Part shown: piece after piece, positions 27,355-54,995 of the stretch
Layout of the letters: each line of letters begins with the position of its first letter
Numbering within the stretch: the stretch's first letter is position 1
IMG/VR virus record: IMGVR_UViG_3300043104_000334
Length of the DNA stretch: 64,000 nt
From: a virus
Lineage: Duplodnaviria > Caudoviricetes
Reading direction: 5' to 3' (one strand)
Made by a program: the position numbers and the translations under genes
Notes under the pieces: generated by a model
Told to the model about the DNA's origin: nothing
Databases searched by the model: none
What the model saw: the letters and a program-made list of their open reading frames with translations, nothing else

Positions 27355-30300
27355 CTAGACCTCCAGAATAAAGTCTCCATTGATTGCCCGGATGAAGTAC
27401 TTCTTCTCTCCAATCTTTGTAAGGATACCATTGTTTGCAAACTCCATAATCTGCTGTAAGGTAAGCCGTGACACAGCAATCCTGAATAGCGTGTCTCCCT
27501 TAACATTGATATAGTTTCCAGTTACAATGATTGGGATATTGTTTGGCTGAACCTCTCGTATAATATCACGCAACTTCTGAAACTCCTCAAGAGTAATGTT
27601 CGATGTACTAACCTCCTTGAGTGACACCTGCTTTGTCTCGATTGCAAGATTAGAGTTGAGGAAGTTCTTCCACGATACATTCGCAACATCTATAGCATTC
27701 TGACATTTCCTGTCGTCAACTGTAGTATCATTGCTATATACAGGTTCCGTTATTGGAGCTTCTTCGCAGTAAGAGTATGCGAGCGGAGAATAAACAATAT
27801 CCTGCTTGAGCGGGATTGAAATAAGCTTCTTTCCCATTGCATTGGCTTTCTTTCTTTCGAGCGCCCACCGGCGAACATAGGCAAAGATATACTCATGTTC
27901 TGACCTATCCAAATAAGGATACAAATCCTCTACATCTGAATATCCACGCACAAGTTCCTCATACATAAGAATTTCATCAATGTCAGAGCTCGGCAGGAAG
28001 TTATCCCGATAAGATAACTTAAGTGGGTTTACACAGATTGCATGAGAATCATACGCGTTCTGATAGAAACCGGCACCATTCGCCTTATCCAGAGCATTCT
28101 GTTCATAATAGTTCGGGAGCAATGGGTAGGTCTTTACAGAATAACCTTTCTTTGGCTTTACGTGCCACGGGTCAACATTTACATTCACCGCACAAATTAT
28201 AAATGTTCCGGTCACTGTATTTGGATTGTACTCATATTTACAGTAATCATAAACTGTCATATATTTCTTATGAGTATCCTTATTGAATGACCGGACAAAA
28301 TTGTACACATCCACCGGAACCTTAATAATAAGGTTCCTTGAATCATACATGTTGACAGTAACCTGATAATTCCCATCAATTGGTTCTGTCCGAACACCGC
28401 CCGCATAGATGAAGAAGAACAGCTGAGCAGCAACATAGTCAATAGACGCTTCTGCACATCTCTTTTCAGACCAGTTGCTAATCTCACCAAAGTTTGACAA
28501 TGGCTTCGCACTGAACTCAGCAGCCGCAACGGCGTCCTTGACAACCGCATGCATTAAGCGACGAATCTTCATATCATTTTTGCCATTATCAACAACAACC
28601 AGCTCCATTAGGTAAGGACGCTGTTTTTCAATAGGCGCATTAGAGATTTCCCTGAACACCTTTGTGCAATATGCCCATGCCCACGTATTAGCGCTAGCCC
28701 GGTTTTCACGATACTTGGCAAAATCGACAAGATAACCGTTATAAGCATTATCCCGTGTCGTAATGATCGACTTGATATCAATCAGGTCGGATGACTCAAT
28801 ATTGGCAATAAGTTCCTCAGCCTGTGATAGCGTAACATTACTGCCATATTCAGCATAGACCGTAGAGATGATACACTCAACAATAGGGATATAAGACACC
28901 CTAAGGTCATCCATAATTCCATCACCAAATGCATCAATAGAGATGTTCCCGTATAAGCAGTCATGTACGAACAGTAGCTTCGTGTAGTAATCAGCGGCAT
29001 CATACTTCTTATTGGTACGCCCCATAAGCTGGCTTACCTGACTGAGCATTGCTTGGTCTTTAGAATACTTAGCGAAGTAGTCTGTGAATGTGGAGTCAAA
29101 CCCAGGCTGTCCCGGTTCAATCTCTTTTCTCATCATCTGCTCACGCCGGTCTCTAAGGTCATCAATATCAGCAAGTTCAAGGAACGACTCAATACCGTTA
29201 TCTAAATCCTCAATACTGAGATCAAATGCATTAAGGATATACTCCGGGATGTCCTGCAGATACAACTCAAATGCATCACACAAATCGTCTGCCTTGTTGT
29301 CAAGCGCATAACGCTTATTAACCGAGTAACTTGCATTCCGTGTGATAGAGTTTGAAATCATGTCAATGATCGCAACCGGATTCAAGCCGTCATTTCGTAA
29401 GTACTCTGCCGTTGATTCCACCGGAGCTTTCTCTGACTTTGAAGCGATAAGCTGAATTGCCTTGAGTACCGCGAAGTTCCAAATGTAATAGTCATCTGCA
29501 CTCGCTATGATATCGACAGGAAATGCAATACCCGGGAATATAGATGCAAAGGCAAAGTTGGAAGCCGAGTAATAAACTGCACCATTTGTATTACTGTGAG
29601 TAAGACCAAGGTTGACTTTATTATGTGCAACCTTATAGGTGTAAGTATACCCACTCTCAGAAACGAGAGTGATATACAGTCTGTCTGAAACATCACTGTA
29701 AAGAGCGTTTGTTACCGGAGAATATTTCTTACCTGTATCTCTCCGACGGCGAATCTGCAAAAGTTCATCATTCGTAGGGATGAGAATACGCGACCGCTTG
29801 AACTCGACAACATCTGTAATGTCTGTGAAGTTCTCATGAGTCTTCAGATAATGCAGATTGTTCTGAGCATCGACGATAACCATTTTCTTGTCCCGGTTGT
29901 CAAATACATAAGACATAGAGCTTGCACTGCCGAGTGGGTCTCTAGAGAACTTGAACATTCCATCAACATTGAGCTTTGTCTCAACCTTTGTACATTTGTC
30001 TTTGAATCCCTCCGGACCCCAAGCATAGTACGCCGCCAAGAACTCAGCCGTTGTAGGTGTCTTTGTATTAAGTACACCTTTGCTGACGAGCCAGTCTACA
30101 AGCTGCACATAGGAGCCGTAGTTTCTCAGCCGATGTCTCTTAATCATAATATCGAAATACTTTTTGTAATCCGGATTTGCAGCAAGTTCGTCAATAGTAA
30201 ACAATGCTTCCGGATTTACGAAGAAGTTGATAGGACGATTGTCTGCGACGTAGTTCACGTCATAGAACGTCCGCTCCATTGTTTCCAGATAAGCAACAAA

Positions 30301-30672
30301 CTCTTCACGGGTGTTAATCTGGTACACCGGCTCTACCTTGAACTGATATGCTGACTCTTCTCTGAATGTGTAGTACTTTGATGCTTCAACATCGCTAAGC
30401 GCTGATGTAGACGCAATATCGATAGATGCGCCCCACTCAAGCTCGTCAACATCGTCACGACTCATAGATTCGTGTTCACTGATTGGCGTTCCGGTAGGGT
30501 CCTCAATCTGATCTGCTTCATAGCTATAATACTTATAGCCCGCCTGAATCAGCGGGCTCATATACATCTCCAGATAGAGAGCTTTCTTACACATAGGTAA
30601 TTCAAAATTTCCATCTTCGAGCATGTAGCCAACAATTGTACCGTTGTCCACAATTTTCTTTTTTATCTGCAT
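27355..30672 (-). CDS. large hypothetical protein (1105 aa)
   Basis: Long ORF with AAGGAG RBS; no motif recognised. Confidence 0.7.
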   Translation of the reverse strand: MQIKKKIVDNGTIVGYMLEDGNFELPMCKKALYLEMYMSPLIQAGYKYYSYEADQIEDPTGTPISEHESMSRDDVDELEWGASIDIASTSALSDVEASKYYTFREESAYQFKVEPVYQINTREEFVAYLETMERTFYDVNYVADNRPINFFVNPEALFTIDELAANPDYKKYFDIMIKRHRLRNYGSYVQLVDWLVSKGVLNTKTPTTAEFLAAYYAWGPEGFKDKCTKVETKLNVDGMFKFSRDPLGSASSMSYVFDNRDKKMVIVDAQNNLHYLKTHENFTDITDVVEFKRSRILIPTNDELLQIRRRRDTGKKYSPVTNALYSDVSDRLYITLVSESGYTYTYKVAHNKVNLGLTHSNTNGAVYYSASNFAFASIFPGIAFPVDIIASADDYYIWNFAVLKAIQLIASKSEKAPVESTAEYLRNDGLNPVAIIDMISNSITRNASYSVNKRYALDNKADDLCDAFELYLQDIPEYILNAFDLSIEDLDNGIESFLELADIDDLRDRREQMMRKEIEPGQPGFDSTFTDYFAKYSKDQAMLSQVSQLMGRTNKKYDAADYYTKLLFVHDCLYGNISIDAFGDGIMDDLRVSYIPIVECIISTVYAEYGSNVTLSQAEELIANIESSDLIDIKSIITTRDNAYNGYLVDFAKYRENRASANTWAWAYCTKVFREISNAPIEKQRPYLMELVVVDNGKNDMKIRRLMHAVVKDAVAAAEFSAKPLSNFGEISNWSEKRCAEASIDYVAAQLFFFIYAGGVRTEPIDGNYQVTVNMYDSRNLIIKVPVDVYNFVRSFNKDTHKKYMTVYDYCKYEYNPNTVTGTFIICAVNVNVDPWHVKPKKGYSVKTYPLLPNYYEQNALDKANGAGFYQNAYDSHAICVNPLKLSYRDNFLPSSDIDEILMYEELVRGYSDVEDLYPYLDRSEHEYIFAYVRRWALERKKANAMGKKLISIPLKQDIVYSPLAYSYCEEAPITEPVYSNDTTVDDRKCQNAIDVANVSWKNFLNSNLAIETKQVSLKEVSTSNITLEEFQKLRDIIREVQPNNIPIIVTGNYINVKGDTLFRIAVSRLTLQQIMEFANNGILTKIGEKKYFIRAINGDFILEV

Positions 30673-30804
30673 CTCTTAAATTCTCCTTTATTATCTATGC
30701 ACTTTATGATATACACGGTTAATACAGCATATATCTACTCCCTCAGGGAATAGGGAGCATGGCTTTATTTAGTTACGATAGGGTGTACGTAAGCTAACTA
30801 AATC

Positions 30805-31182
30805 CTAGTTAGCGCCAGAGCCGTCGATCTCGTCTGCTTTCTTAGCAGCTGCAGCGGTCTGAGCACCTGCCTCTTCGGTCGCAGCCTTATTAGCAGCGGT
30901 AGAGGACTCAAGCACCGCAGATACCTGATCGATGTTACTCTTCGCCTTGTCAAGGCGCTCTTTGATTTTTCCGAAAGTCTTTTCGAAGCCGTCAACAACC
31001 TCAAGAAGAGCAGTCTTTGTCTCGGACTCACCGATAACGTCTTCTCCCTTGAGCTGCTGGATAATCGGCATGATCTCTTCATACTTCTCGTCCATAGCGT
31101 TTACTGCGGCAGTGGTCTCATCAATGAGAGCCTGAAGTTGCGCCGCATCATATGCATTTCCTGCACCAGCTTTAAATGCCAT
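30805..31182 (-). CDS. WXG100-like helical hairpin protein (125 aa)
   Basis: Two amphipathic helices around a central Gly turn (KGEDVIGES), Ala-rich tail, strong RBS, near an FtsK ATPase. The Trp of WxG is absent. Confidence 0.5.
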   Translation of the reverse strand: MAFKAGAGNAYDAAQLQALIDETTAAVNAMDEKYEEIMPIIQQLKGEDVIGESETKTALLEVVDGFEKTFGKIKERLDKAKSNIDQVSAVLESSTAANKAATEEAGAQTAAAAKKADEIDGSGAN

Positions 31183-31204
31183 AATAGTTTACCTCCATAA
31201 GATT
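31179..31204 (-). repeat. 26-nt exact direct repeat of the leader/RBS (second copy at 31525-31550)
   Basis: AATCTTATGGAGGTAAACTATTATGG spans the RBS and start codon of both WXG100-like genes. Confidence 0.9.
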
Positions 31205-31228
31205 ATTTTTGTTTTACATGTAGTCAGT

Positions 31229-31528
31229 CTATGACAGAACTGCGCCCGTTGCAGAAGCCTCAGCAAACTGCTCGGAACTTGCAACGATTGCCGCCAGCTG
31301 AGAGCCAGCGTTCTGAACCGGGTCGGTCGTATCCGCAAGAAGATCAGCAGCTTCAAGCAGGTAATTACCGATGGTAACGTTCATGTCAACGCATCCGGTC
31401 ATGTTTCCGATTGATTCAGCCTTACTCTTCATCTCGGTAGAAATGTTTCCGATTTCCTCTCCGAGGTTTTCAAGTCTTGTAGCGAGCGCTGATGCAGCGT
31501 CTCTGTCTACCACGTTCCATTTTACCAT
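31229..31528 (-). CDS. WXG100-like helical hairpin protein (99 aa)
   Basis: VVDRDAASALATRL N-terminus, central NMTG turn and C-terminal QLAAIVASSEQFAEA helix; about 100 aa. Confidence 0.55.
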   Translation of the reverse strand: MVKWNVVDRDAASALATRLENLGEEIGNISTEMKSKAESIGNMTGCVDMNVTIGNYLLEAADLLADTTDPVQNAGSQLAAIVASSEQFAEASATGAVLS

Positions 31529-31673
31529 AATAGTTTACCTCCATAAGATTTTTGTGTATTAAATGTGTAGTAGCCCTATCCTCTACCACAATTTATATAA
31601 AGTCATAATAGTGACCTCATACCATAAACTTTAATGTACTTATACTTAATAAATTATGTTTAATTCAACCTTT

Positions 31674-31705
31674 CCTTTCTTTCACGTGTATATGTGAAAG
31701 AAAGG
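31674..31705 (-). terminator. hairpin, probable terminator
   Basis: CCTTTCTTTCAC-N8-GTGAAAGAAAGG after the 31721 stop. Confidence 0.6.
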
Positions 31706-31720
31706 TAGGCATCTTCAGTT

Positions 31721-32590
31721 TTACTTCTTATCATTATCTACTATGAAGTTGTATAACGATAATGGGGACCATCCATCATTACTATAACTCTCAATAAGGA
31801 CGGTTGTTTCACTTGTTGCATAGCCAATTATATCCTTTGTTGAGCCACCGGTAACAGATGCATTAGTTGTTGAACCGATTATAGTATGATGACTATCTTT
31901 ATGGTTCTCCCACGATGTTGTTACATCACTTGTACCGTTAGACGTCACCTGTGATGTTCCTACAGGCCCAGCACAAAACCAATTAGCAACATTGCTAAAA
32001 GTAATTCTACAGTTTCCTTTTGTATTAACAATAATGATTTCATCACTGTTTGTTGTATTAACAGAACCGAATACAAAGTTAAATGGTGCGATAATCTCAA
32101 TGTAATTATATTCACCAAAATCCCATAACTCACCTAATTTAACACCTTCGGTCTCTGTACTCATATTATTTGCCTTAGCTATGCCACTCGTTGACAAGCC
32201 AACGTTAGCTAAGTTAAATATAGGATTATCACTGTCACTGTTATCCATTGTTAAATTAGTACTTGTAGCACCGGCGAATGTAGATGTTACAAATAAAGTT
32301 TTTGCATTATATTTGTTTGTATTATTATTTCCATATAATGTAGCTAACGTGAACGTGGAGTTTGTTGTCTTAGACATTTCAGTCTGCGGACAGGTTAACT
32401 TTCTACTACCCGTCATTTGTTGATAGAGCTCAACAGATGAATCTGTCTTACTCTTAACGTTACTTGGAGTGTAATAAGTTCCAACCGCGAAATCCTTTTC
32501 ATCCTGCGTTGTATCATAGTTGTTAATAACGACAACAGCAATTATAATAAACCCTATAAACGCCAATGTCATAGCTACTCTATCTTTCAT
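31721..32590 (-). CDS. membrane-anchored, Thr/Ser/Asn-rich exported protein
   Basis: N-terminal TM helix; the C-terminal part weakly resembles an M23-like fold without Zn ligands. Confidence 0.55.
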   Translation of the reverse strand: MKDRVAMTLAFIGFIIIAVVVINNYDTTQDEKDFAVGTYYTPSNVKSKTDSSVELYQQMTGSRKLTCPQTEMSKTTNSTFTLATLYGNNNTNKYNAKTLFVTSTFAGATSTNLTMDNSDSDNPIFNLANVGLSTSGIAKANNMSTETEGVKLGELWDFGEYNYIEIIAPFNFVFGSVNTTNSDEIIIVNTKGNCRITFSNVANWFCAGPVGTSQVTSNGTSDVTTSWENHKDSHHTIIGSTTNASVTGGSTKDIIGYATSETTVLIESYSNDGWSPLSLYNFIVDNDKK

Positions 32591-32631
32591 TATAGCCTCC
32601 TTGATTACATATCTTAATAGTTATGCAATCA

Positions 32632-32651
32632 TACGGAGATTTCTCTCCGTA
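32632..32651 (-). terminator. hairpin after the FtsK gene
   Basis: TACGGAGA-tttc-TCTCCGTA. Confidence 0.45.
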
Positions 32652-32654
32652 CTT

Positions 32655-35600
32655 TTAAAGAACAATCTCAGAACTTGCAATCTCACGTTCGCATTCTGAA
32701 ATGTAAAGCTTATCGCGTGTAATGTTTCCATCATGCCATGAGAATATCCATCCTGTCTTCATACCCTCATAGTTCTTTCCAGCTTGTCTTGTACCAATAC
32801 ACTTATCGGAATCGTCAACAGAACACTTAGCTGCAATTCTGTAGTTACAAGCATTAACAGTAGCAAGTGCCATACCTGTCATTGTTGTTCCCATGAATAT
32901 AATATGAATATTGTACTCACCACATGTCTGTAATAAGTTGTTCATATTCGTTCTAACGTTCATGTCTGTTTCAATTCCGAATCCCGGACCTTTATCCCAA
33001 CCAAGTAAGAATATCCAAATAGGTGTGTCTTTTCTACCTTTCTCTTTCCTTGCATTGTACAAACCTTGAATCCATTTTACAATTTCTTTAGGCTTGTTAT
33101 TCTCGTATAGCAGGTGTCCATGTTTATCAGGAAATGTTATGCAATTGTCAATATCACATAAGTATCCTAAATCATGAACCTGCGTATTGATAATAACAGT
33201 ACCGGGCACTTTATTATTCTTGATATTACACATAAGCTCTTGGAAGAACATTACAAAGTCTGTATAATCAGATAATACTGACATAATATTTGTATTATTC
33301 TTCGCAGTAAGAATTATGTTATCAGGTGCTTTATTCTGTGAGTAAGCCATCCGGTTTCCTAAGAAGAATACACCAGAATCAGGTAATGATTTCTTTACTG
33401 CAGGACTGTTATATGTATCTACTAACTGTTGAATAGGATGCTTTGTTACCTCTTCATAAGTGATAACATCTTTCTTAGGCATTTTTCTTTCTTCTGCCAG
33501 TAGAGCCATTCTTTTGATATGTTCTCGTAAATCATCATCAGGTATGAATGGAGTTCGATACCTAGGCTGGTCTTCATTAGAAATACCAGTAGCCTTAACA
33601 ATAAGAAATCCAAATTTCTCCTTAATATCAGAAGCTTTAGATGTACCAAGGATTTCCTGTGATACTTCTTTATCACAACGCAAAGCAAACCTTAAGGTGA
33701 ACTGCTGTAAGATATCAGCACTCAAAGTTTTCTTCATTGACTGCGACGTAAAGAAGATATGTACATTAGCTGCACGACCTACCTTGGCAATCTGAGTAAT
33801 ATCAGCCTTAATTAAATCAAGATTCTTCGGGTCAGCCTTTTCAAAGATAACCTGAAACTCATCTGCTATAAACAGTATGCGTGGCCAGCAGTTTTCTGTA
33901 TACCTTTCATCCCCTGTATCAGAAGCTTTCTGTCTCCAGAACTTGTTCCAACCAACAGCACCCTTTTGGTTAGGTGATGTTTTACCGTCAGGACAATAAG
34001 CCAACTCACTAACATATAGACTCGGGTCTTTAAGCACATCGTATCTGTGGTCAGCCTCAACACGTAACGCATGAAACAGCGAAGTAGCATAATCACCATC
34101 AGATGTACATAGACATGCCTTAATATGTGGTAACATATATGGACACTCATCATTAGGCAGGTAAAACTTAAACTCTGTTCCCTTAAAGTCAGTAAGCCAT
34201 AACTCAAGCTCTCTAGGCGAGTATTCCTTAGTTGCAGTGGCGATCAAGTGGTTAAGGAATACTGACTTACCAGCACCAGTACCACCAACACCAATAACAT
34301 GTACGTTACCAGTGTTACCAACCTCGAACGGTTTATATGATGTAGGATCACCATTAAGATAACCAGGATACAACTCCATATAATTATCTGCATTACCAGT
34401 CCACATCTTTGAGTCAGGAATTACATTATCAATGAATTCTTTCCAAGGCAATCCCTTCGGCTTAGATTTGGAAATAGCATCTGCGTAGTTTGAAGCAACC
34501 TTAGCACACCAATCATCATTTACGATATCAGTAATAGGATGCTCAATACTTTCAAATGGTCTCCTGAACACAAATGCTGTCTTAGACTGCATATAATCAG
34601 AAATCATCCAAATGAAGACACCACCAGTTGCTGAGTATTCAAAGAAGCTCTGAAGTTTTTCATCTTCCTCAATTGTCTTAGGCTGCGATAAAACCATAAG
34701 AATACGATACTCAATAGGAGTCATCCCTACTTCTTCACACTTCTTATTATACTCGTCTATTGTCTTACCTGACATAGCCTTGAAGTTCTCTTGTACGTAG
34801 GTAACAAGGTCATCAATAATTTTGGTAAGATCGTCGTTATAGAACTCCAAGTATTGATTTATTTCATTCTTGAATAAAGGCATTATGCTACGACCAAAGT
34901 CATTTGGGTCGTAAACAATTACCTTTACTTTACCCGGCGATACATTGCTGACTGCATTAACATACATAGCCTGTAAGAACTTGTTCATCTTAGATGTGTC
35001 GACACTAGGACGAATAACAATATTCCTTTGACCAACGTCAACAGTCTCTTCTATGCAATCATCATGAATACCGAGAGTGAATGTTCCGTTAAATGTAAGA
35101 TGCTGGGAGAATCTATCACCAAGAAACTTGTACTCACTCTTAAGTTTTTCATACTGTTTATTCATGTATGCAATCTCGGCTATGACATCAGCTTTGATTC
35201 TCTCTATCTTATTATTGAATGTTGTCTCAAGTTCTTTAAGATGTTTCTGATTCTCTGGTAATGCATCAGACCACGCTGCAATTACCTTTGAATTACGAGT
35301 ATCAGGATTACTCTCTTCGAACTTTGCTTCAACTTCATCATACATAGACTCAAACTTACTGAATCTCTCATCTTTATCAAGCATCTCATCAGTAAGCTCT
35401 TCTGGCAATAGTTGTGATTCGTCTAGAGCAGTGAATCCCATATTCTCTGGTTTTACGTTAAACGTAATAGCCAGCAAGATACTATAGAACTTTACTCTAT
35501 TTATATTCTGAATCTGGTTCACACCTAACGCGGTAAAGAATGCTATACTTACAAAATCAAGTATAGGTGTGAAACATGCAATAAGCATACCTATCAGAAC

Positions 35601-36230
35601 TATTCCCTGCATCATAGAGTCATCACAAACTTTCCGGAACTTAGCAATAACATTAGTTCCAGTAGACTCCTTTTGCATGTATGCGATATACTCATCATAT
35701 AAGCTGCTAAGCTCATTGGGCGTGAACATTGTTTCATCGATAGCAATATCAGATGTTGTTATGCCATACTGATTGCATACATTAAATATCTTATCTGAGT
35801 ATTCCTCAAGTGATTTTCGTTTTTCCTCGAGCATTCTAAAATCGGCGTTACCATCATTATTCTGATTGATAAGACACTGATTGTGTAACTTGTTTGAAGA
35901 CTCAATTTCATTCTTTAAACTTGTTATCTGCTCATCAACAGCAGAGTAAGTGGCTTCCTTATCAGAAAGCCACTTCTCCTGTTCCTTTGCTAGCTCATCT
36001 GTTATTACAGCTAAGACCACATCCAATGATAGGTCAAATTTGATACTGTCAAGAGCCGTTTTGAAATTTGTTAACTTACTCATGTGTGCCTTGTATGCAG
36101 ACAAAACTTCCGGTCTTTCTTCCTGAAATTTCTGCAGGCGCTCATCATACTGGTCAATCATCGTAATAAGCTTTTTATAAGGCTCATCTAATAACGCCAT
36201 AACATATTCTGCAATACTTAACATAGGCAC
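32655..36230 (-). CDS. EssC/EccC-like membrane FtsK/SpoIIIE ATPase with tandem RecA-like domains
   Basis: Coiled coil, TM region at about aa 205-240, a degenerate domain (VSPGKVKVIVYDP), an intact domain (GGTGAGKS, SPRELELWLTDFKG, LPHI, IADEFQ, GRAANVH, SQ) and a degenerate C-terminal domain (PIWIFLLGWD, GEYNIHII). Confidence 0.85.
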   Translation of the reverse strand: MPMLSIAEYVMALLDEPYKKLITMIDQYDERLQKFQEERPEVLSAYKAHMSKLTNFKTALDSIKFDLSLDVVLAVITDELAKEQEKWLSDKEATYSAVDEQITSLKNEIESSNKLHNQCLINQNNDGNADFRMLEEKRKSLEEYSDKIFNVCNQYGITTSDIAIDETMFTPNELSSLYDEYIAYMQKESTGTNVIAKFRKVCDDSMMQGIVLIGMLIACFTPILDFVSIAFFTALGVNQIQNINRVKFYSILLAITFNVKPENMGFTALDESQLLPEELTDEMLDKDERFSKFESMYDEVEAKFEESNPDTRNSKVIAAWSDALPENQKHLKELETTFNNKIERIKADVIAEIAYMNKQYEKLKSEYKFLGDRFSQHLTFNGTFTLGIHDDCIEETVDVGQRNIVIRPSVDTSKMNKFLQAMYVNAVSNVSPGKVKVIVYDPNDFGRSIMPLFKNEINQYLEFYNDDLTKIIDDLVTYVQENFKAMSGKTIDEYNKKCEEVGMTPIEYRILMVLSQPKTIEEDEKLQSFFEYSATGGVFIWMISDYMQSKTAFVFRRPFESIEHPITDIVNDDWCAKVASNYADAISKSKPKGLPWKEFIDNVIPDSKMWTGNADNYMELYPGYLNGDPTSYKPFEVGNTGNVHVIGVGGTGAGKSVFLNHLIATATKEYSPRELELWLTDFKGTEFKFYLPNDECPYMLPHIKACLCTSDGDYATSLFHALRVEADHRYDVLKDPSLYVSELAYCPDGKTSPNQKGAVGWNKFWRQKASDTGDERYTENCWPRILFIADEFQVIFEKADPKNLDLIKADITQIAKVGRAANVHIFFTSQSMKKTLSADILQQFTLRFALRCDKEVSQEILGTSKASDIKEKFGFLIVKATGISNEDQPRYRTPFIPDDDLREHIKRMALLAEERKMPKKDVITYEEVTKHPIQQLVDTYNSPAVKKSLPDSGVFFLGNRMAYSQNKAPDNIILTAKNNTNIMSVLSDYTDFVMFFQELMCNIKNNKVPGTVIINTQVHDLGYLCDIDNCITFPDKHGHLLYENNKPKEIVKWIQGLYNARKEKGRKDTPIWIFLLGWDKGPGFGIETDMNVRTNMNNLLQTCGEYNIHIIFMGTTMTGMALATVNACNYRIAAKCSVDDSDKCIGTRQAGKNYEGMKTGWIFSWHDGNITRDKLYISECEREIASSEIVL

Positions 36231-38130: not shown

Positions 38131-38598
38131 TTAATCCTCCGCTGTGACTCCCTTATCCTGCAAAAGCACTCCCTGTAAATGGTCATACTCATGCATAAAG
38201 ATTCTTGCTTTCTTATATGGGAGCCACTCAACTGTTTTAATATTATGCTCATCTACATACGATACTTTTATTAAAAGTGGTCTCTTAACAATGTATCGTT
38301 TGTCTCCCTCAGATAAACATCCCTCGTTTGACTTCTTTGACCCAAATGCAAATAATACTTTTGGGTTGTATACAACCTTTGGGTCTTTGCCTTTTGTGTA
38401 CCTTAACAAGACTGCACAATAAGGCATACCACACTGTACAGCAGATATGCCTTGAGCAGCTCCTTTTAAATCCCTGAATGTCGTTAACAAAACAATCCTA
38501 AGAGTTGAGACAAAATGATTGTCACGCATATCAACTTCTTTCGACACCTGATGCAGCGTTTTTACATCTGTCTCTACAGGACTCCTTTTTACTTTCAC
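38131..38598 (-). CDS. def: peptide deformylase
   Basis: GISAVQCG, EGCLS and HEYDHLQG motifs. Confidence 0.93.
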   Translation of the reverse strand: MKVKRSPVETDVKTLHQVSKEVDMRDNHFVSTLRIVLLTTFRDLKGAAQGISAVQCGMPYCAVLLRYTKGKDPKVVYNPKVLFAFGSKKSNEGCLSEGDKRYIVKRPLLIKVSYVDEHNIKTVEWLPYKKARIFMHEYDHLQGVLLQDKGVTAED

Positions 38599-38612: not shown

Positions 38613-39320
38613 CTACTTGAATGTGATATATTGAGTTACATCCAACCCGGCAGCAACCTGAATAAGGTACCCATCATACGTATAGTAATCATACTTAGAG
38701 GATGACCCTTTCATAAGCTGGTACTCCTTGTTGTTCTGTGTTACTGATACCGTTTGTGTGCAGTCATAAGTTCCCTGTGAAACCTTAGCTACACCCAAAA
38801 TAAGTGCACAGTCATTTCTTGCAGTGACCTGATCATATTCATTTCCGAATACAAAATTTCCGAAGTCTACATAAACTTGTGCGTTTGTAAGACTTACTGT
38901 ATTCATGAATTCATAGGCATACACAGCAACAGTTGTTGCGGGCAAGTCATTGGTCGTAACCTTGCAAATCATCCACATGTTATTACCAAGACTCTTTGCC
39001 ATTGTGAGACGTGAACCAAGGTACTCAGTGTAATAGTAGCAACCTTTATATTTGTCCATGTCCTCTTCCATGATACCTTGCGTATTTGATGTAATATTCG
39101 TTACATCAGTAGCATTGTCCAATGACAGCTCAAAGTATAAACCGCTATCAGCCGTCCCAGCTGCTTCATATCCGGAATAAGATTCCAGCTGTGTTTCTTT
39201 CCCGTCGATTTCAATTATACCGTTGTTCCACTCTACAGTAATATCTTCAGTCGGGTTGCCACTAGAGCAGCCCATTAAACATAGAGCGCATAGCATTAAT
39301 ACTGGAATTATCTTTTTCAT
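38613..39320 (-). CDS. lipoprotein
   Basis: MKKIIPVLMLCALCLMGC lipobox. Confidence 0.75.
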   Translation of the reverse strand: MKKIIPVLMLCALCLMGCSSGNPTEDITVEWNNGIIEIDGKETQLESYSGYEAAGTADSGLYFELSLDNATDVTNITSNTQGIMEEDMDKYKGCYYYTEYLGSRLTMAKSLGNNMWMICKVTTNDLPATTVAVYAYEFMNTVSLTNAQVYVDFGNFVFGNEYDQVTARNDCALILGVAKVSQGTYDCTQTVSVTQNNKEYQLMKGSSSKYDYYTYDGYLIQVAAGLDVTQYITFK

Positions 39321-40350
39321 CTATGATTCCTCTCCTTATGTTAATGATATCATTAACAAGTCCGCGAATTTTAATGTAGGTCAGCTTCGTAGAACTTGCT
39401 TCTTCTTCTGACAGTGTATCTATCATAAGCAGCAACTCTTTGTCGGCCCTAAGACTCGGAACCGTAATGACCTTGTTTGAGTTCAGCATCGGGCGTGACC
39501 ACGCTGTCTTCTTCGGTAAGAGATACCCTCTTGAGCAAATAACAGCACGCCGCATAGCCCGAATGTCAAGGTCAGTAGAGATATTATCGATGGCATTTAT
39601 CATATAAATTTCTGATGCCATTCTCACGAAATTGTAACCCGGCTCACCATCAATTACAGCAGAGATATTCTGCATGAAGTTGAACTTTGTATCATACTCT
39701 GTAAGTGCTGCATCTGACTTGATAAGCTTATCAATAATTTCTTTTGCGACAATTACTTCTGGAGACTCTTCAACATCATTAGGTAACTCAACGATTTCTT
39801 TTGTTTGATAGCCGTACTTTGTTGACTCCAAATCAAAGGCTACGTAATGCCCAATAAAGGAATTAAGCAGCTCTTCCATTTCTTCTGTTGTTGTATTAGA
39901 CGCAAACAGTCGAACCTGAAACTCCTTTGATTCTGAATCAATCATTGTACAGTCAAACCACTTTGCTTTAGGGGAACTCCCAAGCTGTACCACCGACATG
40001 AGTGCAATGCAGTTGGGATAGAACTCACCAAACCGGATGTTCTTACTCTCGATATTACAGATAGTTCTTTTATTTCCCTCCGGTATAAGCTTGATGTTTT
40101 CTGTACTTTCGACTGTCATGATATTCGAGATAATTACCAAGTCATAAACAACCATCTCCTGTTTACCTTTGATAACATCCGGACGACGCGTGTACATAAC
40201 ATCCTTGCCAACGAACTGTAACAGCTCTGTGGCATCACCAAATATTTTGACCGCATCAAAATCAATCTGAATCTCACAGTAGTCTAAGCCATCATCATAC
40301 TTTTCAATGAATGTAACTTTCTCTACTTTACCCTGTAGTCTCTCAATCAT
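39262..40350 (-). CDS. possible OB-fold nucleic-acid-binding protein
   Basis: Central VQLGSSPKAKWFDCTMIDSESKEFQVRLF loosely resembles a YhaM-type OB fold. Confidence 0.35.
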   Translation of the reverse strand: MIERLQGKVEKVTFIEKYDDGLDYCEIQIDFDAVKIFGDATELLQFVGKDVMYTRRPDVIKGKQEMVVYDLVIISNIMTVESTENIKLIPEGNKRTICNIESKNIRFGEFYPNCIALMSVVQLGSSPKAKWFDCTMIDSESKEFQVRLFASNTTTEEMEELLNSFIGHYVAFDLESTKYGYQTKEIVELPNDVEESPEVIVAKEIIDKLIKSDAALTEYDTKFNFMQNISAVIDGEPGYNFVRMASEIYMINAIDNISTDLDIRAMRRAVICSRGYLLPKKTAWSRPMLNSNKVITVPSLRADKELLLMIDTLSEEEASSTKLTYIKIRGLVNDIINIRRGIIDEKDNSSINAMRSMFNGLL

Positions 40351-40670
40351 ATCTTTTTCCTTTCCTCATTTACGTAGACAAAGACAGTATCATCATAAAT
40401 ACAGATGATTAGGAAAACTGCCCTTACTAAGATACTTAATAACAGTTTAATAATGTGAACTTTATGGAACAAGCATCTCCACACTAAACTGAAGAATAGC
40501 ATCAACACTTCTGTTGCTACTATATTTCCGAACTTGACATGTATGCCAATCTTCCTCGCACTAAACATCAGTGTTGGCACTATAAGTAGTACATTGTATA
40601 ATGAGAATCCATTTATAAAGAATCCCGCAATCCAACATACGAATGCTGTTATAATAAATCCTGTAAGCAT
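40347..40670 (-). CDS. multi-pass membrane protein
   Basis: Four hydrophobic segments. Confidence 0.6.
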   Translation of the reverse strand: MLTGFIITAFVCWIAGFFINGFSLYNVLLIVPTLMFSARKIGIHVKFGNIVATEVLMLFFSLVWRCLFHKVHIIKLLLSILVRAVFLIICIYDDTVFVYVNEERKKI

Positions 40671-40888: not shown

Positions 40889-41179
40889 TTAAATGCAATT
40901 CAAGTATGTTACAATATCTCCAACATCTATCACTTCATCAGCAGACTTTCTGTAGGAGATATGACCAACAGTCCTAAGGAGTTTGCTGATATTATAAGCA
41001 CTTTCGCTTATGTTTGCAACAACTTTTCTCTTCCCATTGAACTCAACAATGAGTTGCATATCTCCTTTCTCAAGAGTTCTTACAACGACGGGTAACGTCT
41101 CATTAGGAGTTAGGACTACAACGCTAGGAAACTTCTCCTGCGTCTTTCTTTCTGTTAACTCCTGAATACTGAAACTCAT
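40889..41179 (-). CDS. hypothetical protein
   Basis: Start overlaps the upstream stop; AAGGAGG RBS. Confidence 0.55.
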   Translation of the reverse strand: MSFSIQELTERKTQEKFPSVVVLTPNETLPVVVRTLEKGDMQLIVEFNGKRKVVANISESAYNISKLLRTVGHISYRKSADEVIDVGDIVTYLNCI

Positions 41180-41667
41180 CGCTTAAATGTATCCTCCTTA
41201 GCCTGTGCATGTCTAATGACGTTAGGCAGATATGCGCCGATAAAATACTGACCAAATGGGAACGCAATCGTGTAGAACAGCAGCTTAGCACCACGTAATG
41301 CATCAGCGTCATGTATCACCGTGTACACGAACATCATGTTGGAAACAATCCAGAAAGCAAGTACTGCCCAGAACAGAACAATACTTACCGTGCCGAGCGT
41401 GACATTCTGATAATACTTGTACCATACTCCAACCCTGAATACAGAGATAAGGATTACGAATATGGTCGAGAATGTTACAAGTCGGAGCCGCCCAAAGTAC
41501 TTGTACTCCGAACGAATAATGTTGACGATAGGGATACAGCAGATGACCCTTTCGCCGCCAGAGATTTCTCCCTCCATCTTTGAGATGCCCATTGACATAA
41601 GAGCCGGCGTCCAAAACATAATTGCAAGCAATCCTACAATAATTCCTGATACAAAAGTCTCACTCAT
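41176..41667 (-). CDS. multi-pass membrane protein
   Basis: Four hydrophobic segments and a CIPIVN motif. Confidence 0.6.
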   Translation of the reverse strand: MSETFVSGIIVGLLAIMFWTPALMSMGISKMEGEISGGERVICCIPIVNIIRSEYKYFGRLRLVTFSTIFVILISVFRVGVWYKYYQNVTLGTVSIVLFWAVLAFWIVSNMMFVYTVIHDADALRGAKLLFYTIAFPFGQYFIGAYLPNVIRHAQAKEDTFKR

Positions 41668-53487: not shown

Positions 53488-53658
53488 TCAAAAGATTCTT
53501 AATAGGCCATACTGACACATATAATCTTCATCAATAGGAACGCCAATTGCTATGAGTGCATGCGTTAGTAAATCAAACAAAACAGCAATGCACACGATAG
53601 CAAACAGCATAGCAATGTACTCAAATACAAATGTAAGTACATCCTTAAATAATTTCAT
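53488..53658 (-). CDS. 56-aa membrane peptide (not in the ORF track)
   Basis: MKLFKDVLTFVFEYIAMLFAIVCIAVLFDLL...; start coupled to the dnaK stop (TGATG). Confidence 0.45.
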   Translation of the reverse strand: MKLFKDVLTFVFEYIAMLFAIVCIAVLFDLLTHALIAIGVPIDEDYMCQYGLLRIF

Positions 53659-54995
53659 CACTTCATAACGAGTTTAATCTGCTGGGTATCATTCGTCATA
53701 ATGTTCGTACAGGATAACGAAATTCTACCATTTCTGTCAACAGTAATCTCGATCTCGACAAGACCGGTATGAGCAGGCATGACCTCGCCATAATCATATA
53801 CCAGTGTACCAACGTACTCATTTTCACTGCAGAGAATTGAGTCACCCTGATAGAGATTAACATTAAGGTACCGTGTATCTTCTGTGTTATCAAACACCTT
53901 AATCTCCGTAACAGGAATAACCGTATTTTTCTCGATGATGACCTCAGCCATACCAAGACTGTTCTCGATACATAAGCATTTTGTTACATCATCGACTTCG
54001 CTCTCAGCAGTCCCGTTCTCCACCATTTCAGCATAGAGTGCAACACCCTTTGCCACAATAAGGTCAGCAGGAACATCACATGGGATACTTTCAAGACCGG
54101 TCTCCTCCATAACCCATTCCCGCAGATAAGGACATTCTGTTGATCCGCCAACAAAGACAATCTTTGGTTTCTCAGATTCCATAAGATTTGTCTGGATAAG
54201 CTGCTTTGTAAGTTTGATAGTTGGTGCAAAGATTTGTTTCATAATGCTTACGTAGTCTTCCTTTGTAAGCTTCCACGCACCATCAACACCCATAATGTCC
54301 ATATCAACGTACTGCTCAAGTCCTGTTTTCTGCAAAGCTTCTTTTGCTAACCGAACCTTTGATACAAGTACTTTGACTGAATCGGCCGAACGAAAACGCA
54401 TCTTTACTTTGCAGTCAGTCATAGCTTTATTGGCTAGTGCCCTGTCAAAGTTGTCTCCGGCAAGATGCCCATCACCATCCGTGGCAACAACAAAATAGTT
54501 ACCAACTCTTGAATCGAGAATAGTAACATCAAATGTTCCACCACCGAGGTCATAAACAACCACGAGGTCTTTTAAATCCCGGCATACATATAATGCCGCA
54601 GCTGTAGGCTCATTGATAAGACCATGCATTGTGAGACCTGCCTGTTCAGCAGCATCCCATACTGCTTGTCTCTGCGTATGTGAAAACTTTGCTGGTACCG
54701 ATACGACAATGTCCTCAATATATTCGCCAGTTCGCATAGAGGCTTTATTCACTAAGTCTCTTAATATAATTGCAGAACAAGCGATAGGCAACTTGCCGGA
54801 CGAACCAGTTGTCATGTTAATCTTATAGGACGATACAATATCCTTAGATACTACATCCCGGCTAACCTGAGCTTTCTTGGACACATCTACACTGGACGAC
54901 ACAAGCCCAGTATAGAGCTCATCACCATGCCCAATGAGAGAGTTTGTTGTTCCCAAATCAATTCCACAGATTCTACCCATTAATCTTTCCTCCAT
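53658..54995 (-). CDS. dnaK: shortened Hsp70/DnaK-family chaperone
   Basis: GIDLGTTNS, VVSVPAKF, INEPTAAAL, VYDLGGGTFDV and VFVGGS; 445 aa, no helical lid. Confidence 0.9.
   Translation of the reverse strand: MEERLMGRICGIDLGTTNSLIGHGDELYTGLVSSSVDVSKKAQVSRDVVSKDIVSSYKINMTTGSSGKLPIACSAIILRDLVNKASMRTGEYIEDIVVSVPAKFSHTQRQAVWDAAEQAGLTMHGLINEPTAAALYVCRDLKDLVVVYDLGGGTFDVTILDSRVGNYFVVATDGDGHLAGDNFDRALANKAMTDCKVKMRFRSADSVKVLVSKVRLAKEALQKTGLEQYVDMDIMGVDGAWKLTKEDYVSIMKQIFAPTIKLTKQLIQTNLMESEKPKIVFVGGSTECPYLREWVMEETGLESIPCDVPADLIVAKGVALYAEMVENGTAESEVDDVTKCLCIENSLGMAEVIIEKNTVIPVTEIKVFDNTEDTRYLNVNLYQGDSILCSENEYVGTLVYDYGEVMPAHTGLVEIEITVDRNGRISLSCTNIMTNDTQQIKLVMK

What the first reader, a model, noticed from the sequence alone, without database searches (positions are those of the whole stretch)
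30805..36230. Type VII secretion-like module (EssC/EccC-like ATPase plus a WXG100-like pair) on a jumbo-phage-like replicon
Seen: a 1191-aa membrane protein with tandem RecA-like domains, one with intact Walker A (GGTGAGKS) and Walker B (ADEFQ). It is followed by a membrane-anchored protein and two 99-125 aa helix-turn-helix proteins with a central Gly turn, an identical leader, their own promoter-like motif and flanking hairpins. Known: an FtsK ATPase plus WXG100 substrates is the minimal core of T7SS (EssC/EsxA, EccC/EsxAB). Inference: this element, which carries its own RNAP, encodes a divergent protein-export machine for effector delivery, competition, superinfection exclusion or cell-to-cell spread. 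Both small proteins lack the Trp of WxG, so standard profiles may miss them. The alternative is an FtsK/TraB-like DNA translocase.
Basis: partly seen in the sequence, partly recalled or inferred. Interest (0 to 1): 0.88.

Follow-up and report, generated by a model that had tools for sequence, protein, structure and literature searches.

The report
Secretion-like motor with two Esx-like proteins
A roughly 200-kb unclassified gut element carries a membrane-anchored FtsK-type motor next to two fast-evolving small proteins that are distant relatives of the ESAT-6/WXG100 secretion substrates, so it probably exports proteins in a type VII-like way, although the motor is not a true EssC/EccC and a DNA-pumping role is not excluded.

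Summary
At 32655-36230 (-) lies a 1191-aa FtsK/SpoIIIE-family protein with a membrane hairpin, one intact ATPase domain (GGTGAGKS, DEFQ) and a degenerate second copy. It is followed by a membrane-anchored 289-aa protein and two helical-hairpin proteins of 99 and 125 aa that share a 29-nt start region.

This gene order is kept in 13 related loci, mostly from 90-310 kb contigs, down to 26-30% motor identity. Profile comparisons link both small families to WXG100 (91-96% and 77%; reversed controls 6-26%). Pfam WXG100 is the commonest family among 66 relatives of the first protein, although the window's own proteins miss it and lack the Trp.

The motor is not an EssC/EccC. It lies outside their clade, is as close to FtsK as to EssC, and has two to three rather than four NTPase domains. 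No T7SS accessory family was found by Pfam. Its nearest cellular relatives sit in a conserved four-gene locus in which one member carries an ADP-ribosyltransferase toxin domain, which points to protein export.

Best reading (about 0.5): a reduced type VII-like exporter, a new variant of a known kind. Main rival (about 0.28): a DNA translocase or coupling protein for the element's VirB4 apparatus. The scan noted this stretch before only in overlapping windows of the same genome.

The parts
32655..36230 (-). 1191-aa membrane-anchored FtsK/SpoIIIE-family ATPase (P0001), GTG start
   Evidence: Pfam PF01580 at 3e-15; PHROG FtsK/SpoIIIE-like at 1e-27; more than 139 homologs, mostly on 150-310 kb contigs
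35616..36230 (-). N-terminal region of about 205 aa, read as coiled-coil-rich and inferred to be cytoplasmic
   Evidence: Only weak coiled-coil-type Pfam hits. Basic residues flank both sides of the hydrophobic hairpin.
35520..35612 (-). Membrane hairpin, residues 207-237, with a conserved T-P-x-L-D/N turn
   Evidence: Family-averaged hydropathy and alignment
34356..35045 (-). Domain D0 (residues 396-625), a possible degenerate NTPase-like domain
   Evidence: ESM Atlas feature search: 19 of 30 named hits are FtsK_SpoIIIE clusters, score 0.92. hhalign to D1, the EssC DUF region or FtsK is not significant. Residues 325-515 resemble the C-terminal part of the separate membrane protein of the cellular sister system (hhalign 80%, E 1.4e-5).
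33516..34355 (-). Domain D1 (residues 626-905), the catalytically intact FtsK-type ATPase domain
   Evidence: Invariant G649, G652, G654, K655, S656 and D790, E791, F792, Q793. hhalign to EssC D1 gives 2e-22 and to the FtsK motor 7e-22. Tree placement.
32658..33413 (-). Domain D2 (residues 940-1191), a degenerate second FtsK-like domain without a P-loop
   Evidence: hhalign D2 against D1: 96.5%, E 9e-10. The D1 HMM hits this region in all family members tested.
31721..32590 (-). 289-aa protein with one N-terminal TM anchor and a Ser/Thr/Asn/Gly-rich domain inferred to be extracytoplasmic (P0002); function unknown
   Evidence: TM at residues 5-23. No Pfam, PHROG, NCBIfam or PADLOC family. No usable Atlas hit. 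Present in all relatives examined.
31674..31705 (-). Perfect 12-bp hairpin just after the stop codon of P0002
   Evidence: Inverted repeat I2
31525..31553 (-). Translation-initiation region of small A, copy 1 of the 29-nt repeat, with a GGAGGT Shine-Dalgarno
   Evidence: Direct repeat D1; sequence
31229..31528 (-). Small A (P0003, 99 aa): helical hairpin, divergent WXG100-superfamily protein without the WxG Trp
   Evidence: AF2 pLDDT 89. hhalign to 11 Bacilli WXG100: 91%, E 1e-6. With the deeper alignment: 95.9%, E 6e-9. Pfam WXG100 hit by 11 of 66 relatives.
31179..31207 (-). Translation-initiation region of small B, copy 2 of the 29-nt repeat
   Evidence: Direct repeat D1
30805..31182 (-). 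Small B (P0004, 125 aa): helical hairpin with a long second helix and a conserved (D/N/T)-G-(S/T)-G-A tail; probable WXG100-like partner
30738..30757 (-). 6-bp stem, 8-nt loop hairpin downstream of small B
   Evidence: Read directly from the sequence. Not listed by the terminator scan because no T-run follows.

Best explanation
The module is a reduced, divergent type VII-like protein export unit carried by a giant non-cellular element of gut Bacillota.

Shown:
- The large protein is an FtsK-superfamily ATPase held at the membrane by one hydrophobic hairpin. It has one catalytically competent domain followed by a degenerate copy.
- The two small genes encode hairpins of about 100 aa that are remote WXG100-superfamily relatives. 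They have strong, matched ribosome-binding sites.
- They lie in a separate gap-flanked unit.
- They diverge fastest in the neighbourhood.
- They have conserved extreme C-terminal tails.

Inferred:
- The ATPase forms a membrane-associated hexamer.
- The two hairpins pair as an Esx-like four-helix bundle.
- Their C-terminal tails dock on the degenerate C-terminal domain and switch on the active domain.
- The pair, and perhaps other element proteins, are pushed across the host membrane.
- The membrane-anchored 289-aa protein acts on the outer face.

The biological purpose is guessed. Candidates are support of cell-to-cell transfer alongside the element's VirB4 apparatus, as in mycobacterial pRAW plasmids, or competition and exclusion.
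For: 1. Small A resembles WXG100. hhalign gives 91%, E 1e-6 over 88 columns, in register from the N-terminus through the turn. With 66 relatives it gives 95.9%, E 6e-9, against 18-26% for reversed controls.
2. The small A profile found 66 short full-length relatives among 1.84 billion representatives. One is a bona fide Pfam WXG100 protein on a bacterial contig. Pfam WXG100 is the most frequent family among the 66: 11 members, best E 8e-9.
3. Small B against WXG100 gives 77%, E 2e-5, against 6-9% for reversed controls. The small A HMM picks small B as its second-best hit in the window, E 0.002.
4. Both AF2 models are hairpins. Their top Foldseek PDB hits are mostly Esx proteins, TM-score up to 0.77.
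5. The order ATPase, anchored protein, A, B is kept in 13 related loci down to 26-30% ATPase identity.
6. The ATPase layout is cytoplasmic N-domain, membrane hairpin, stalk, then tandem NTPase-like domains with only one active. This is the EssC/EccC layout minus one or two domains.
7. No FtsK gamma domain was hit by Pfam.
8. The nearest cellular relatives of D1 (99 SH-aLRT) sit in a conserved four-gene locus. In it, a roughly 243-aa helical protein shares its fold-defining N-terminus with a downstream protein that has a variable C-terminal part, an ADP-ribosyltransferase toxin domain in L006.
9. Tail motifs are conserved in small A (31 of 64; shuffles average 3.3) and in small B (10 of 15).
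10. The pair diverges fastest locally, for example 48% and 42% identity where the ATPase is at 81%.
11. Precedent: T7SS is defined by an FtsK-type ATPase plus a WXG100 protein (PMC11217815). Plasmid pRAW needs both type IV-like and type VII systems for conjugation (PMC4173767).
Against: - The active domain lies outside the EssC/EccC D1 clade (SH-aLRT 94). It sits with FtsK and conjugative FtsK-like ATPases across a split supported at 90.
- It scores the same against EssC D1 and FtsK.
- Only two NTPase domains are demonstrable. A third is suggested only by language-model features.
- There are no FHA domains, and no YukD/EsaB, EssA, EssB, EsaA or EccB/D/E families by Pfam in the module or in the 10 upstream proteins scanned.
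- The window's own small proteins do not reach any WXG100 profile threshold and lack the WxG Trp.
- The whole 20-kb region is collinear in relatives, so the co-occurrence is not specific.
- Unrelated genes are inserted between the ATPase and the pair in two relatives.
- Earlier unverified notes report a VirB4 apparatus on the element but no VirD4 or relaxase, which leaves a coupling-protein role open.
Confidence: 0.5

Rival explanations
1. The ATPase is a DNA translocase. It would be either the coupling protein of the element's atypical VirB4-type transfer apparatus (like TcpA of pCW3, TraD of pELF plasmids or Streptomyces TraB) or a segregation or packaging pump. The two small hairpin proteins would be merely neighbours in a collinear core genome, or accessory factors.
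For: - D1 groups on the FtsK and conjugative-ATPase side of the tree, SH-aLRT 90.
- D1 is as similar to the FtsK motor as to EssC D1.
- FtsK-type ATPases are essential conjugation motors in Gram-positive plasmids (PMC13492992).
- Earlier scan notes, not verified here, report VirB4 but no VirD4 or relaxase on this element.
- No VirD4/TraG family was found in the distant relative's genome bin either.
- The pair is a separate unit, and insertions separate it from the ATPase in two relatives.
Against: - The family forms its own starred clade together with cellular ATPases whose loci include a toxin-domain protein. Those loci have no Pfam-recognisable relaxase or transfer gene among the eight proteins scanned.
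- The tandem degenerate domain is not a feature of TcpA, TraD, TraB or FtsK. The pELF TraD homolog groups with FtsK, not with this family.
- There is no gamma or winged-helix DNA-recognition domain by Pfam.
- By the earlier notes, the ATPase gene is tens of kb from the VirB4 block.
- Two WXG100-like genes follow the ATPase, one gene downstream, in every relative examined.
Confidence: 0.28
2. The small hairpin pair acts inside the cell as abundant structural, regulatory or chaperone-like proteins of the element, for example membrane-remodelling or coat-like helical proteins. The resemblance to WXG100 would be convergent coiled-coil similarity, and the ATPase would have an unrelated role.
For: - The hairpin fold is generic.
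- Sequence-profile hits to PDB are dominated by unrelated coiled coils and designed bundles, with S. aureus EsxA only at E 0.06.
- The strong matched ribosome-binding sites and flanking hairpins fit any abundant protein.
Against: - Reversed-sequence controls score far lower than the true WXG100 comparison for both families.
- The alignments are full-length and in register.
- Pfam WXG100 is the single most frequent family among 66 relatives.
- The profile retrieves a genuine cellular WXG100 protein.
Confidence: 0.15

Closest known systems
Type VII secretion systems of Bacillota and Actinomycetota (T7SSa-j; EssC/EccC/TsxC plus EsxA/TsxA), as surveyed in PMC11217815
   Same: - A membrane-bound FtsK-family ATPase with tandem NTPase-like domains, of which one carries the catalytic motifs.
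- One or two hairpin proteins of about 100 aa from the WXG100 superfamily encoded beside it. A non-identical pair also occurs in T7SSa, T7SSe and T7SSg.
- Conserved C-terminal tails on the small proteins.
   Different: - The ATPase lies outside the EssC/EccC clade.
- It has two demonstrable NTPase domains, perhaps three, instead of four.
- It has a coiled-coil N-domain instead of FHA domains, and a single short membrane hairpin.
- No ubiquitin-like TsxB and no other subtype components were found.
- The small proteins lack the Trp of WxG.
- The carrier is a roughly 200-kb non-cellular element with its own RNA polymerase.
Mycobacterial conjugative plasmid pRAW and other ESX-encoding plasmids (PMC4173767, PMC4779608)
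   Same: A mobile replicon that carries both a VirB4-type apparatus and a type VII-like module. In pRAW both are needed for transfer.
   Different: - pRAW has a complete canonical ESX locus (EccB, EccC, EccD, EccE, MycP, Esx, PE/PPE) and a relaxase.
- Here only the motor and the hairpin pair are recognisable.
- The host is a gut Clostridia-type bacterium.
- The VirB4 block of this element was reported by earlier notes and was not checked here.
FtsK-type conjugation motors of Gram-positive plasmids (TcpA of pCW3, TraD of pELF2, Streptomyces TraB; PMC13492992)
   Same: An FtsK-superfamily ATPase on a mobile element, membrane-associated. The element lacks a recognisable VirD4.
   Different: - Those motors have a single NTPase domain.
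- The pELF TraD homolog groups tightly with FtsK, not with this family.
- None is linked to WXG100-like genes.
Uncharacterised four-gene locus of Bacillota found here (for example Sporosarcina sp. FA9, loci L008, and a Lachnospiraceae MAG, L006)
   Same: - It holds the closest relatives of the active ATPase domain.
- Its separate coiled-coil plus TM protein resembles the N-terminal half of the element's ATPase.
- It has helical partner proteins encoded next to the motor.
   Different: - The motor is soluble and separate from the membrane protein.
- The helical partners are about 243 aa and not detectably related to small A or B.
- One partner is fused to a variable C-terminal part, an ADP-ribosyltransferase toxin domain in L006.

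Membership tests
Type VII secretion system (criteria of PMC11217815) | Membrane-bound FtsK-related ATPase | tested here: met
   PF01580 at 3e-15. Conserved hydrophobic hairpin at 207-237.
Type VII secretion system (criteria of PMC11217815) | ATPase with four C-terminal NTPase domains (DUF, D1-D3) | tested here: not met
   Only D1 and a degenerate D2 are demonstrable. D0 is FtsK-like only by language-model features and not by hhalign. The 1191-aa length leaves no room for a fourth domain.
Type VII secretion system (criteria of PMC11217815) | ATPase belongs to the EssC/EccC lineage | tested here: not met
   In the quick ML tree of 37 domains, EssC, EccC and Rothia D1 form a clade (94) that excludes this family. 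This family joins the L006/L008-type ATPases (99*). hhalign scores to EssC D1 and FtsK are equal. NCBIfam EccCa and EssC hits are far below their cut-offs.
Type VII secretion system (criteria of PMC11217815) | WXG100-family hairpin protein(s) encoded at the locus | tested here: met
   Met at superfamily level. Small A: hhalign 91-96% and Pfam WXG100 in 11 of 66 relatives. Small B: 77%. Neither window protein passes Pfam on its own.
Type VII secretion system (criteria of PMC11217815) | Ubiquitin-like EsaB/YukD/TsxB and subtype membrane components (EssA, EssB, EsaA or EccB, EccD, EccE) | tested here: inconclusive
   No such Pfam family in the module or in the 10 upstream proteins scanned. Only sequence profiles were used; no structures were predicted for these proteins.
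Type VII secretion system (criteria of PMC11217815) | ATPase-dependent export of the small proteins | not testable with these tools
   Needs secretion assays. No sequencing runs could be retrieved.
WXG100 (Pfam PF06013) | Helix-turn-helix hairpin of about 100 aa | tested here: met
   AF2 models. Esx proteins are among the best structural matches, but tied with other hairpins.
WXG100 (Pfam PF06013) | W-x-G motif in the turn | tested here: not met
   There is no Trp in either turn. Small B keeps a hydrophobic-G-x-S turn (VIGES in the window) that aligns with W-x-G-x-S/T. The turn of small A is not conserved.
WXG100 (Pfam PF06013) | Match to the family profile | tested here: inconclusive
   The window's proteins have no Pfam hit. 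Relatives hit at E up to 0.1 in 11 of 66 cases, best 8e-9, and that best hit is probably the cellular WXG100 protein P0205. Profile-profile comparisons are positive.
WXG100 (Pfam PF06013) | Homo- or heterodimeric four-helix bundle | not tested
FtsK/SpoIIIE DNA translocases | Motor domain plus C-terminal gamma (winged-helix) DNA-recognition domain and a multi-TM N-terminus | tested here: not met
   The motor domain is present. No FtsK gamma hit at E up to 1. The C-terminus is instead a degenerate NTPase copy. There is one membrane hairpin rather than four TM helices. Bona fide FtsK proteins form a separate starred clade.
FtsK-like type IV coupling proteins (TcpA/TraD type) | Single FtsK-like NTPase encoded within a transfer operon with VirB4-like, VirB6-like or relaxase genes | tested here: not met
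   The domains are tandem. The neighbours are replication genes, unknown genes and the hairpin pair. Plasmid FtsK-like motors group elsewhere. The rest of the element could not be searched because no genome is held.

The most novel reading that the evidence does not exclude
The element's ATPase and the soluble ATPases of the four-gene Bacillota loci together define an unrecognised branch of FtsK-type protein-export machines. This branch would be separate from EssC/EccC. Bacteria would use it to export polymorphic toxins, and giant extrachromosomal elements would use it to export WXG100-like hairpins. That would make type VII-like secretion older and more modular than the current T7SSa-j scheme, and give a giant non-cellular element its own protein secretion system.
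Probability: 0.3. Interest if true: 0.8.

Novelty: new variant of a known kind. Interest (0 to 1): 0.62.

Why it matters
If the reading is right:
- A large, widespread family of roughly 150-310 kb gut elements would carry its own minimal protein-export motor with Esx-like substrates. At least 139 protein clusters were found for the motor.
- This would extend type VII-like secretion beyond cellular chromosomes and mycobacterial plasmids.
- It would show that an FtsK-type motor outside the EssC/EccC lineage can be paired with WXG100-like proteins.
- It points to a testable sister system in a sequenced isolate, Sporosarcina sp. FA9.
- It offers a candidate reader or export route for other element proteins.

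If the rival is right, the protein is instead the missing coupling motor of an atypical Gram-positive transfer apparatus. That would also be useful to know.

Tried and rejected
- Complex prediction of small A, small B and ATPase residues 906-1191 gave no verdict, score 0.00. It counts neither for nor against binding.
- No whole genome is held for the window.
- IMG/VR and the phage DNA collection gave no relatives. Protein hits in phages and plasmids were generic FtsK-domain matches at 22-30% identity over most of the domain, or up to about 37% over short stretches.
- Word-based homolog searches with the small proteins found almost nothing, because they diverge too fast. Syntenic extraction and a full HMMER scan were needed.
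- Small A against small B by hhalign is not significant.
- Small A and B against the 243-aa helical family of the cellular sister loci are not significant.
- D0 against D1, the EssC DUF region or FtsK is not significant.
- PADLOC gave only generic FtsK/HerA-type hits (mad8, SspH, HerA), not diagnostic of a defence system.
- The Atlas search for the anchored protein gave nothing usable.
- WXG100 was not found by Pfam in five genomes that carry the sister ATPase loci.
- The Hodor megaplasmids (PMC12934698) were considered as the element's identity and rejected. They have VirD4, relaxases and Rep_3, and the paper mentions neither FtsK nor RNA polymerase.
- The element's 13-mer promoter candidate is not upstream of the pair.

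Full report
**What is there.**
All genes of the window run on the minus strand. The window belongs to a large non-cellular element with its own multisubunit RNA polymerase beta-prime, two family-A DNA polymerases and an Hsp70. Earlier notes of this scan describe the element as a roughly 193-kb circle with a VirB4-type apparatus elsewhere. I did not verify those notes. No DNA relative exists in the phage collection or IMG/VR, and no genome is held for the window.

The finding covers four genes:
- P0001 at 32655-36230, 1191 aa
- P0002 at 31721-32590, 289 aa
- P0003, 'small A', at 31229-31528, 99 aa
- P0004, 'small B', at 30805-31182, 125 aa

**The ATPase.**
- Family: P0001 matches Pfam FtsK_SpoIIIE at 3e-15 over residues 636-831 and a PHROG FtsK/SpoIIIE-like family at 1e-27. 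In 30 homologs the Walker A and Walker B residues (G649, G652, G654, K655, S656; D790, E791, F792, Q793) are invariant.
- Second domain: residues 940-1191 are homologous to the active domain (hhalign 96.5%, E 9e-10) but have no P-loop. This is a degenerate second NTPase domain.
- Possible third domain: residues 396-625 look FtsK-like only to a protein language model (19 of 30 named hits, score 0.92). No profile comparison confirms it.
- Membrane anchor: it is one conserved 31-residue hydrophobic stretch (207-237) with a T-P-x-L-D/N turn and basic residues on both sides. I infer a hairpin with both ends in the cytoplasm.
- Overall layout: cytoplasmic coiled-coil domain, membrane hairpin, stalk, then two or three tandem NTPase-like domains with one active. 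This resembles EssC/EccC with one or two domains fewer.

**Descent of the ATPase.**
- NCBIfam lists EccCa, EssC and EccCb ahead of FtsK, but all are far below their cut-offs.
- A family profile hits the B. subtilis EssC homolog YukB, an EccC and FtsK in PDB at similar E-values.
- With reference domains taken from genomes and plasmids, D1 scores 2e-22 against EssC D1 and 7e-22 against the FtsK motor.
- In a maximum-likelihood tree, the EssC, EccC and Rothia D1 domains form one clade (SH-aLRT 94) that excludes this family.
- The family joins, with 99 support, a set of cellular ATPases (loci L006 and L008). That group sits on the FtsK and conjugative-plasmid side of a split supported at 90.
- So the motor is not an EssC/EccC by descent.

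**The sister system.**
The cellular relatives lie in a conserved four-gene locus found in about fifteen loci. Its genes are:
- a 665-890-aa protein with an N-terminal coiled coil and TM segments
- a helical protein of about 243 aa
- the soluble FtsK-like ATPase
- a protein whose first roughly 200 residues are homologous to the 243-aa protein and whose C-terminal part varies

In L006 that C-terminal part carries an ADP-ribosyltransferase exotoxin domain (5e-19). A small helical partner plus a toxin that shares its N-terminal domain, next to an FtsK-type motor, is the logic of LXG/Lap toxin export by T7SSb. That comparison is my inference.

Residues 325-515 of the element's ATPase resemble the C-terminal part of the separate membrane protein (hhalign 80%, E 1.4e-5). 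This suggests that the element's ATPase is a fusion of the two cellular proteins.

**The small proteins.**
- Fold: AlphaFold2 gives clean helical hairpins.
- Foldseek: against PDB it puts EsxA, EsxB, GBS1074, CFP-10/ESAT-6, EsxEF and HP0062 among the top hits for both proteins. E-values are only 0.14-2 and TM-scores reach 0.77.
- Reference set: I extracted 11 Pfam-positive WXG100 proteins from Bacilli genomes.
- Small A: its family aligns to that set full-length and in register at 91%, E 1e-6.
- Small B: its family aligns at 77%, E 2e-5.
- Controls: reversed-sequence comparisons give 6-17%.
- Wider search: a full HMMER scan of 1.84 billion representatives with the small A profile found 66 short full-length relatives.
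- Pfam on the relatives: scanned one by one, their most frequent Pfam family is WXG100 (11 of 66, best 8e-9), with WXG100_2 in two more.
- Cellular WXG100 retrieved: one retrieved protein is a genuine cellular WXG100 on a bacterial contig with Spo0A.
- Deeper alignment: it raises the hhalign result to 95.9%, E 6e-9, with controls at 18-26%. It includes that one cellular protein, which makes this number slightly circular.
- Limits: the window's own proteins hit no WXG100 profile and lack the Trp. Small B keeps a hydrophobic-G-x-S turn.
- A against B: they are not detectably paralogous by hhalign, though the small A HMM ranks small B second in the window (E 0.002).

**Context and evolution.**
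- Synteny: the order ATPase, anchored protein, small A, small B, a protein of about 900-1140 aa, then (where annotated) second PolA and RNase H is kept in 13 related loci, most of them from 90-310 kb contigs, down to 26-30% ATPase identity.
- Caveat on synteny: the whole region is collinear, so co-occurrence alone is weak evidence.
- Insertions: unrelated genes sit between the ATPase and the pair in L001 and L170.
- Divergence: the pair diverges fastest in the neighbourhood. Identity is 48% and 42% where the ATPase is at 81%, and 14% and 23% in L167 where the ATPase is at 64%, which looks like an allele replacement.
- Tails of small A: a tail of the form N/G-x-L-G/F near the C-terminus occurs in 31 of 64 small A sequences, against a mean of 3.3 in shuffles.
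- Tails of small B: a D/N/T-G-S/T-G-A tail occurs in 10 of 15 sequences.
- Start regions: the 29-nt shared start region is real, but exact identity is specific to this lineage. Relatives share only a strong GGAGGT site and a Met-Ala start.
- Transcription signals: hairpins flank the pair. A promoter could not be confirmed.

**What is missing.**
- No YukD/EsaB, EssA, EssB, EsaA or EccB/D/E family was found in the module or in the 10 upstream proteins scanned. The upstream genes include a peptide deformylase, soluble proteins, a lipoprotein and two small polytopic membrane proteins.
- The anchored 289-aa protein has no recognisable family.

**Weighing.**
- The small pair is probably a divergent WXG100-superfamily pair; I put this at about 0.75.
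- The motor has a T7SS-like layout. It also has toxin-linked cellular relatives, but it is not an EssC/EccC.
- I therefore do not file the module as a T7SS member. I propose that it works like one (0.5).
- The main rival is a DNA-translocating coupling motor for the VirB4 apparatus (0.28). Support comes from the tree side, from FtsK-type conjugation motors in Gram-positive plasmids (PMC13492992), and from the reported lack of VirD4.
- The pRAW plasmid shows that the two ideas can coexist, because both type IV-like and type VII systems are needed for its transfer (PMC4173767).
- A third possibility is that the hairpins act inside the cell and the WXG100 similarity is convergent (0.15).

Noticed in passing
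L006:6487-16328 and L008:6915-13736; also L007, L009-L011, L089-L099, L102, L110: A conserved four-gene locus in Bacillota: a coiled-coil plus TM protein (665-890 aa), a helical protein of about 243 aa, a soluble FtsK-like ATPase, and a protein with an N-terminus homologous to the 243-aa protein and a variable C-terminal part (ADP-ribosyltransferase toxin domain in L006). No Pfam or PADLOC family names the non-ATPase parts. It looks like an undescribed toxin-export system.
   Followed up: partly
L167:11756-12487: In this relative the small pair is only 14% and 23% identical to the window's, although the ATPase is 64% and the flanking genes 40-67% identical. This suggests that the pair was replaced as a cassette.
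   Followed up: partly
window 27355-30672 (-): A 1105-aa protein directly after the pair has no Pfam, PHROG, NCBIfam or PADLOC family, yet is kept (about 900-1140 aa) in the related loci examined, between the pair and the second PolA.
   Followed up: no
window 38131-38598 (-): The 155-aa gene here lies where every related locus carries a peptide deformylase gene (Pfam Pep_deformylase on the relatives' products), in the operon upstream of the ATPase. That is an unusual gene for a mobile element. The window's own product was not scanned.
   Followed up: no
window 53658-54995 (-): The element encodes an Hsp70/DnaK-like protein (Pfam HSP70 at 3e-62) that lacks roughly the first 95 positions of the profile.
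   Followed up: no
L001:13788-16259 and L170:11460-12244: Variable insertions lie inside the module in relatives. In L001 they include a Flg_new_2 surface-repeat protein and a guanylate kinase. In L170 they are an HD-domain protein and a DUF488 protein.
   Followed up: no
window 38613-39320, 40347-40670 and 41176-41667 (-): A predicted lipoprotein (signal peptide with a Cys after LMG) and two small polytopic membrane proteins (3-4 hydrophobic segments each) lie in the conserved upstream operon. They could be membrane partners of the ATPase but match no family.
   Followed up: partly
L005 (contig JAISYS010000042.1, 155,790 bp, binned in a Candidatus Endomicrobiellum MAG): A distant member of the same element family, with the same gene order around the ATPase, sits in a genome bin named Candidatus Endomicrobiellum. 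The family therefore reaches beyond human-gut Lachnospiraceae samples, and the contig may be mis-binned.
   Followed up: partly
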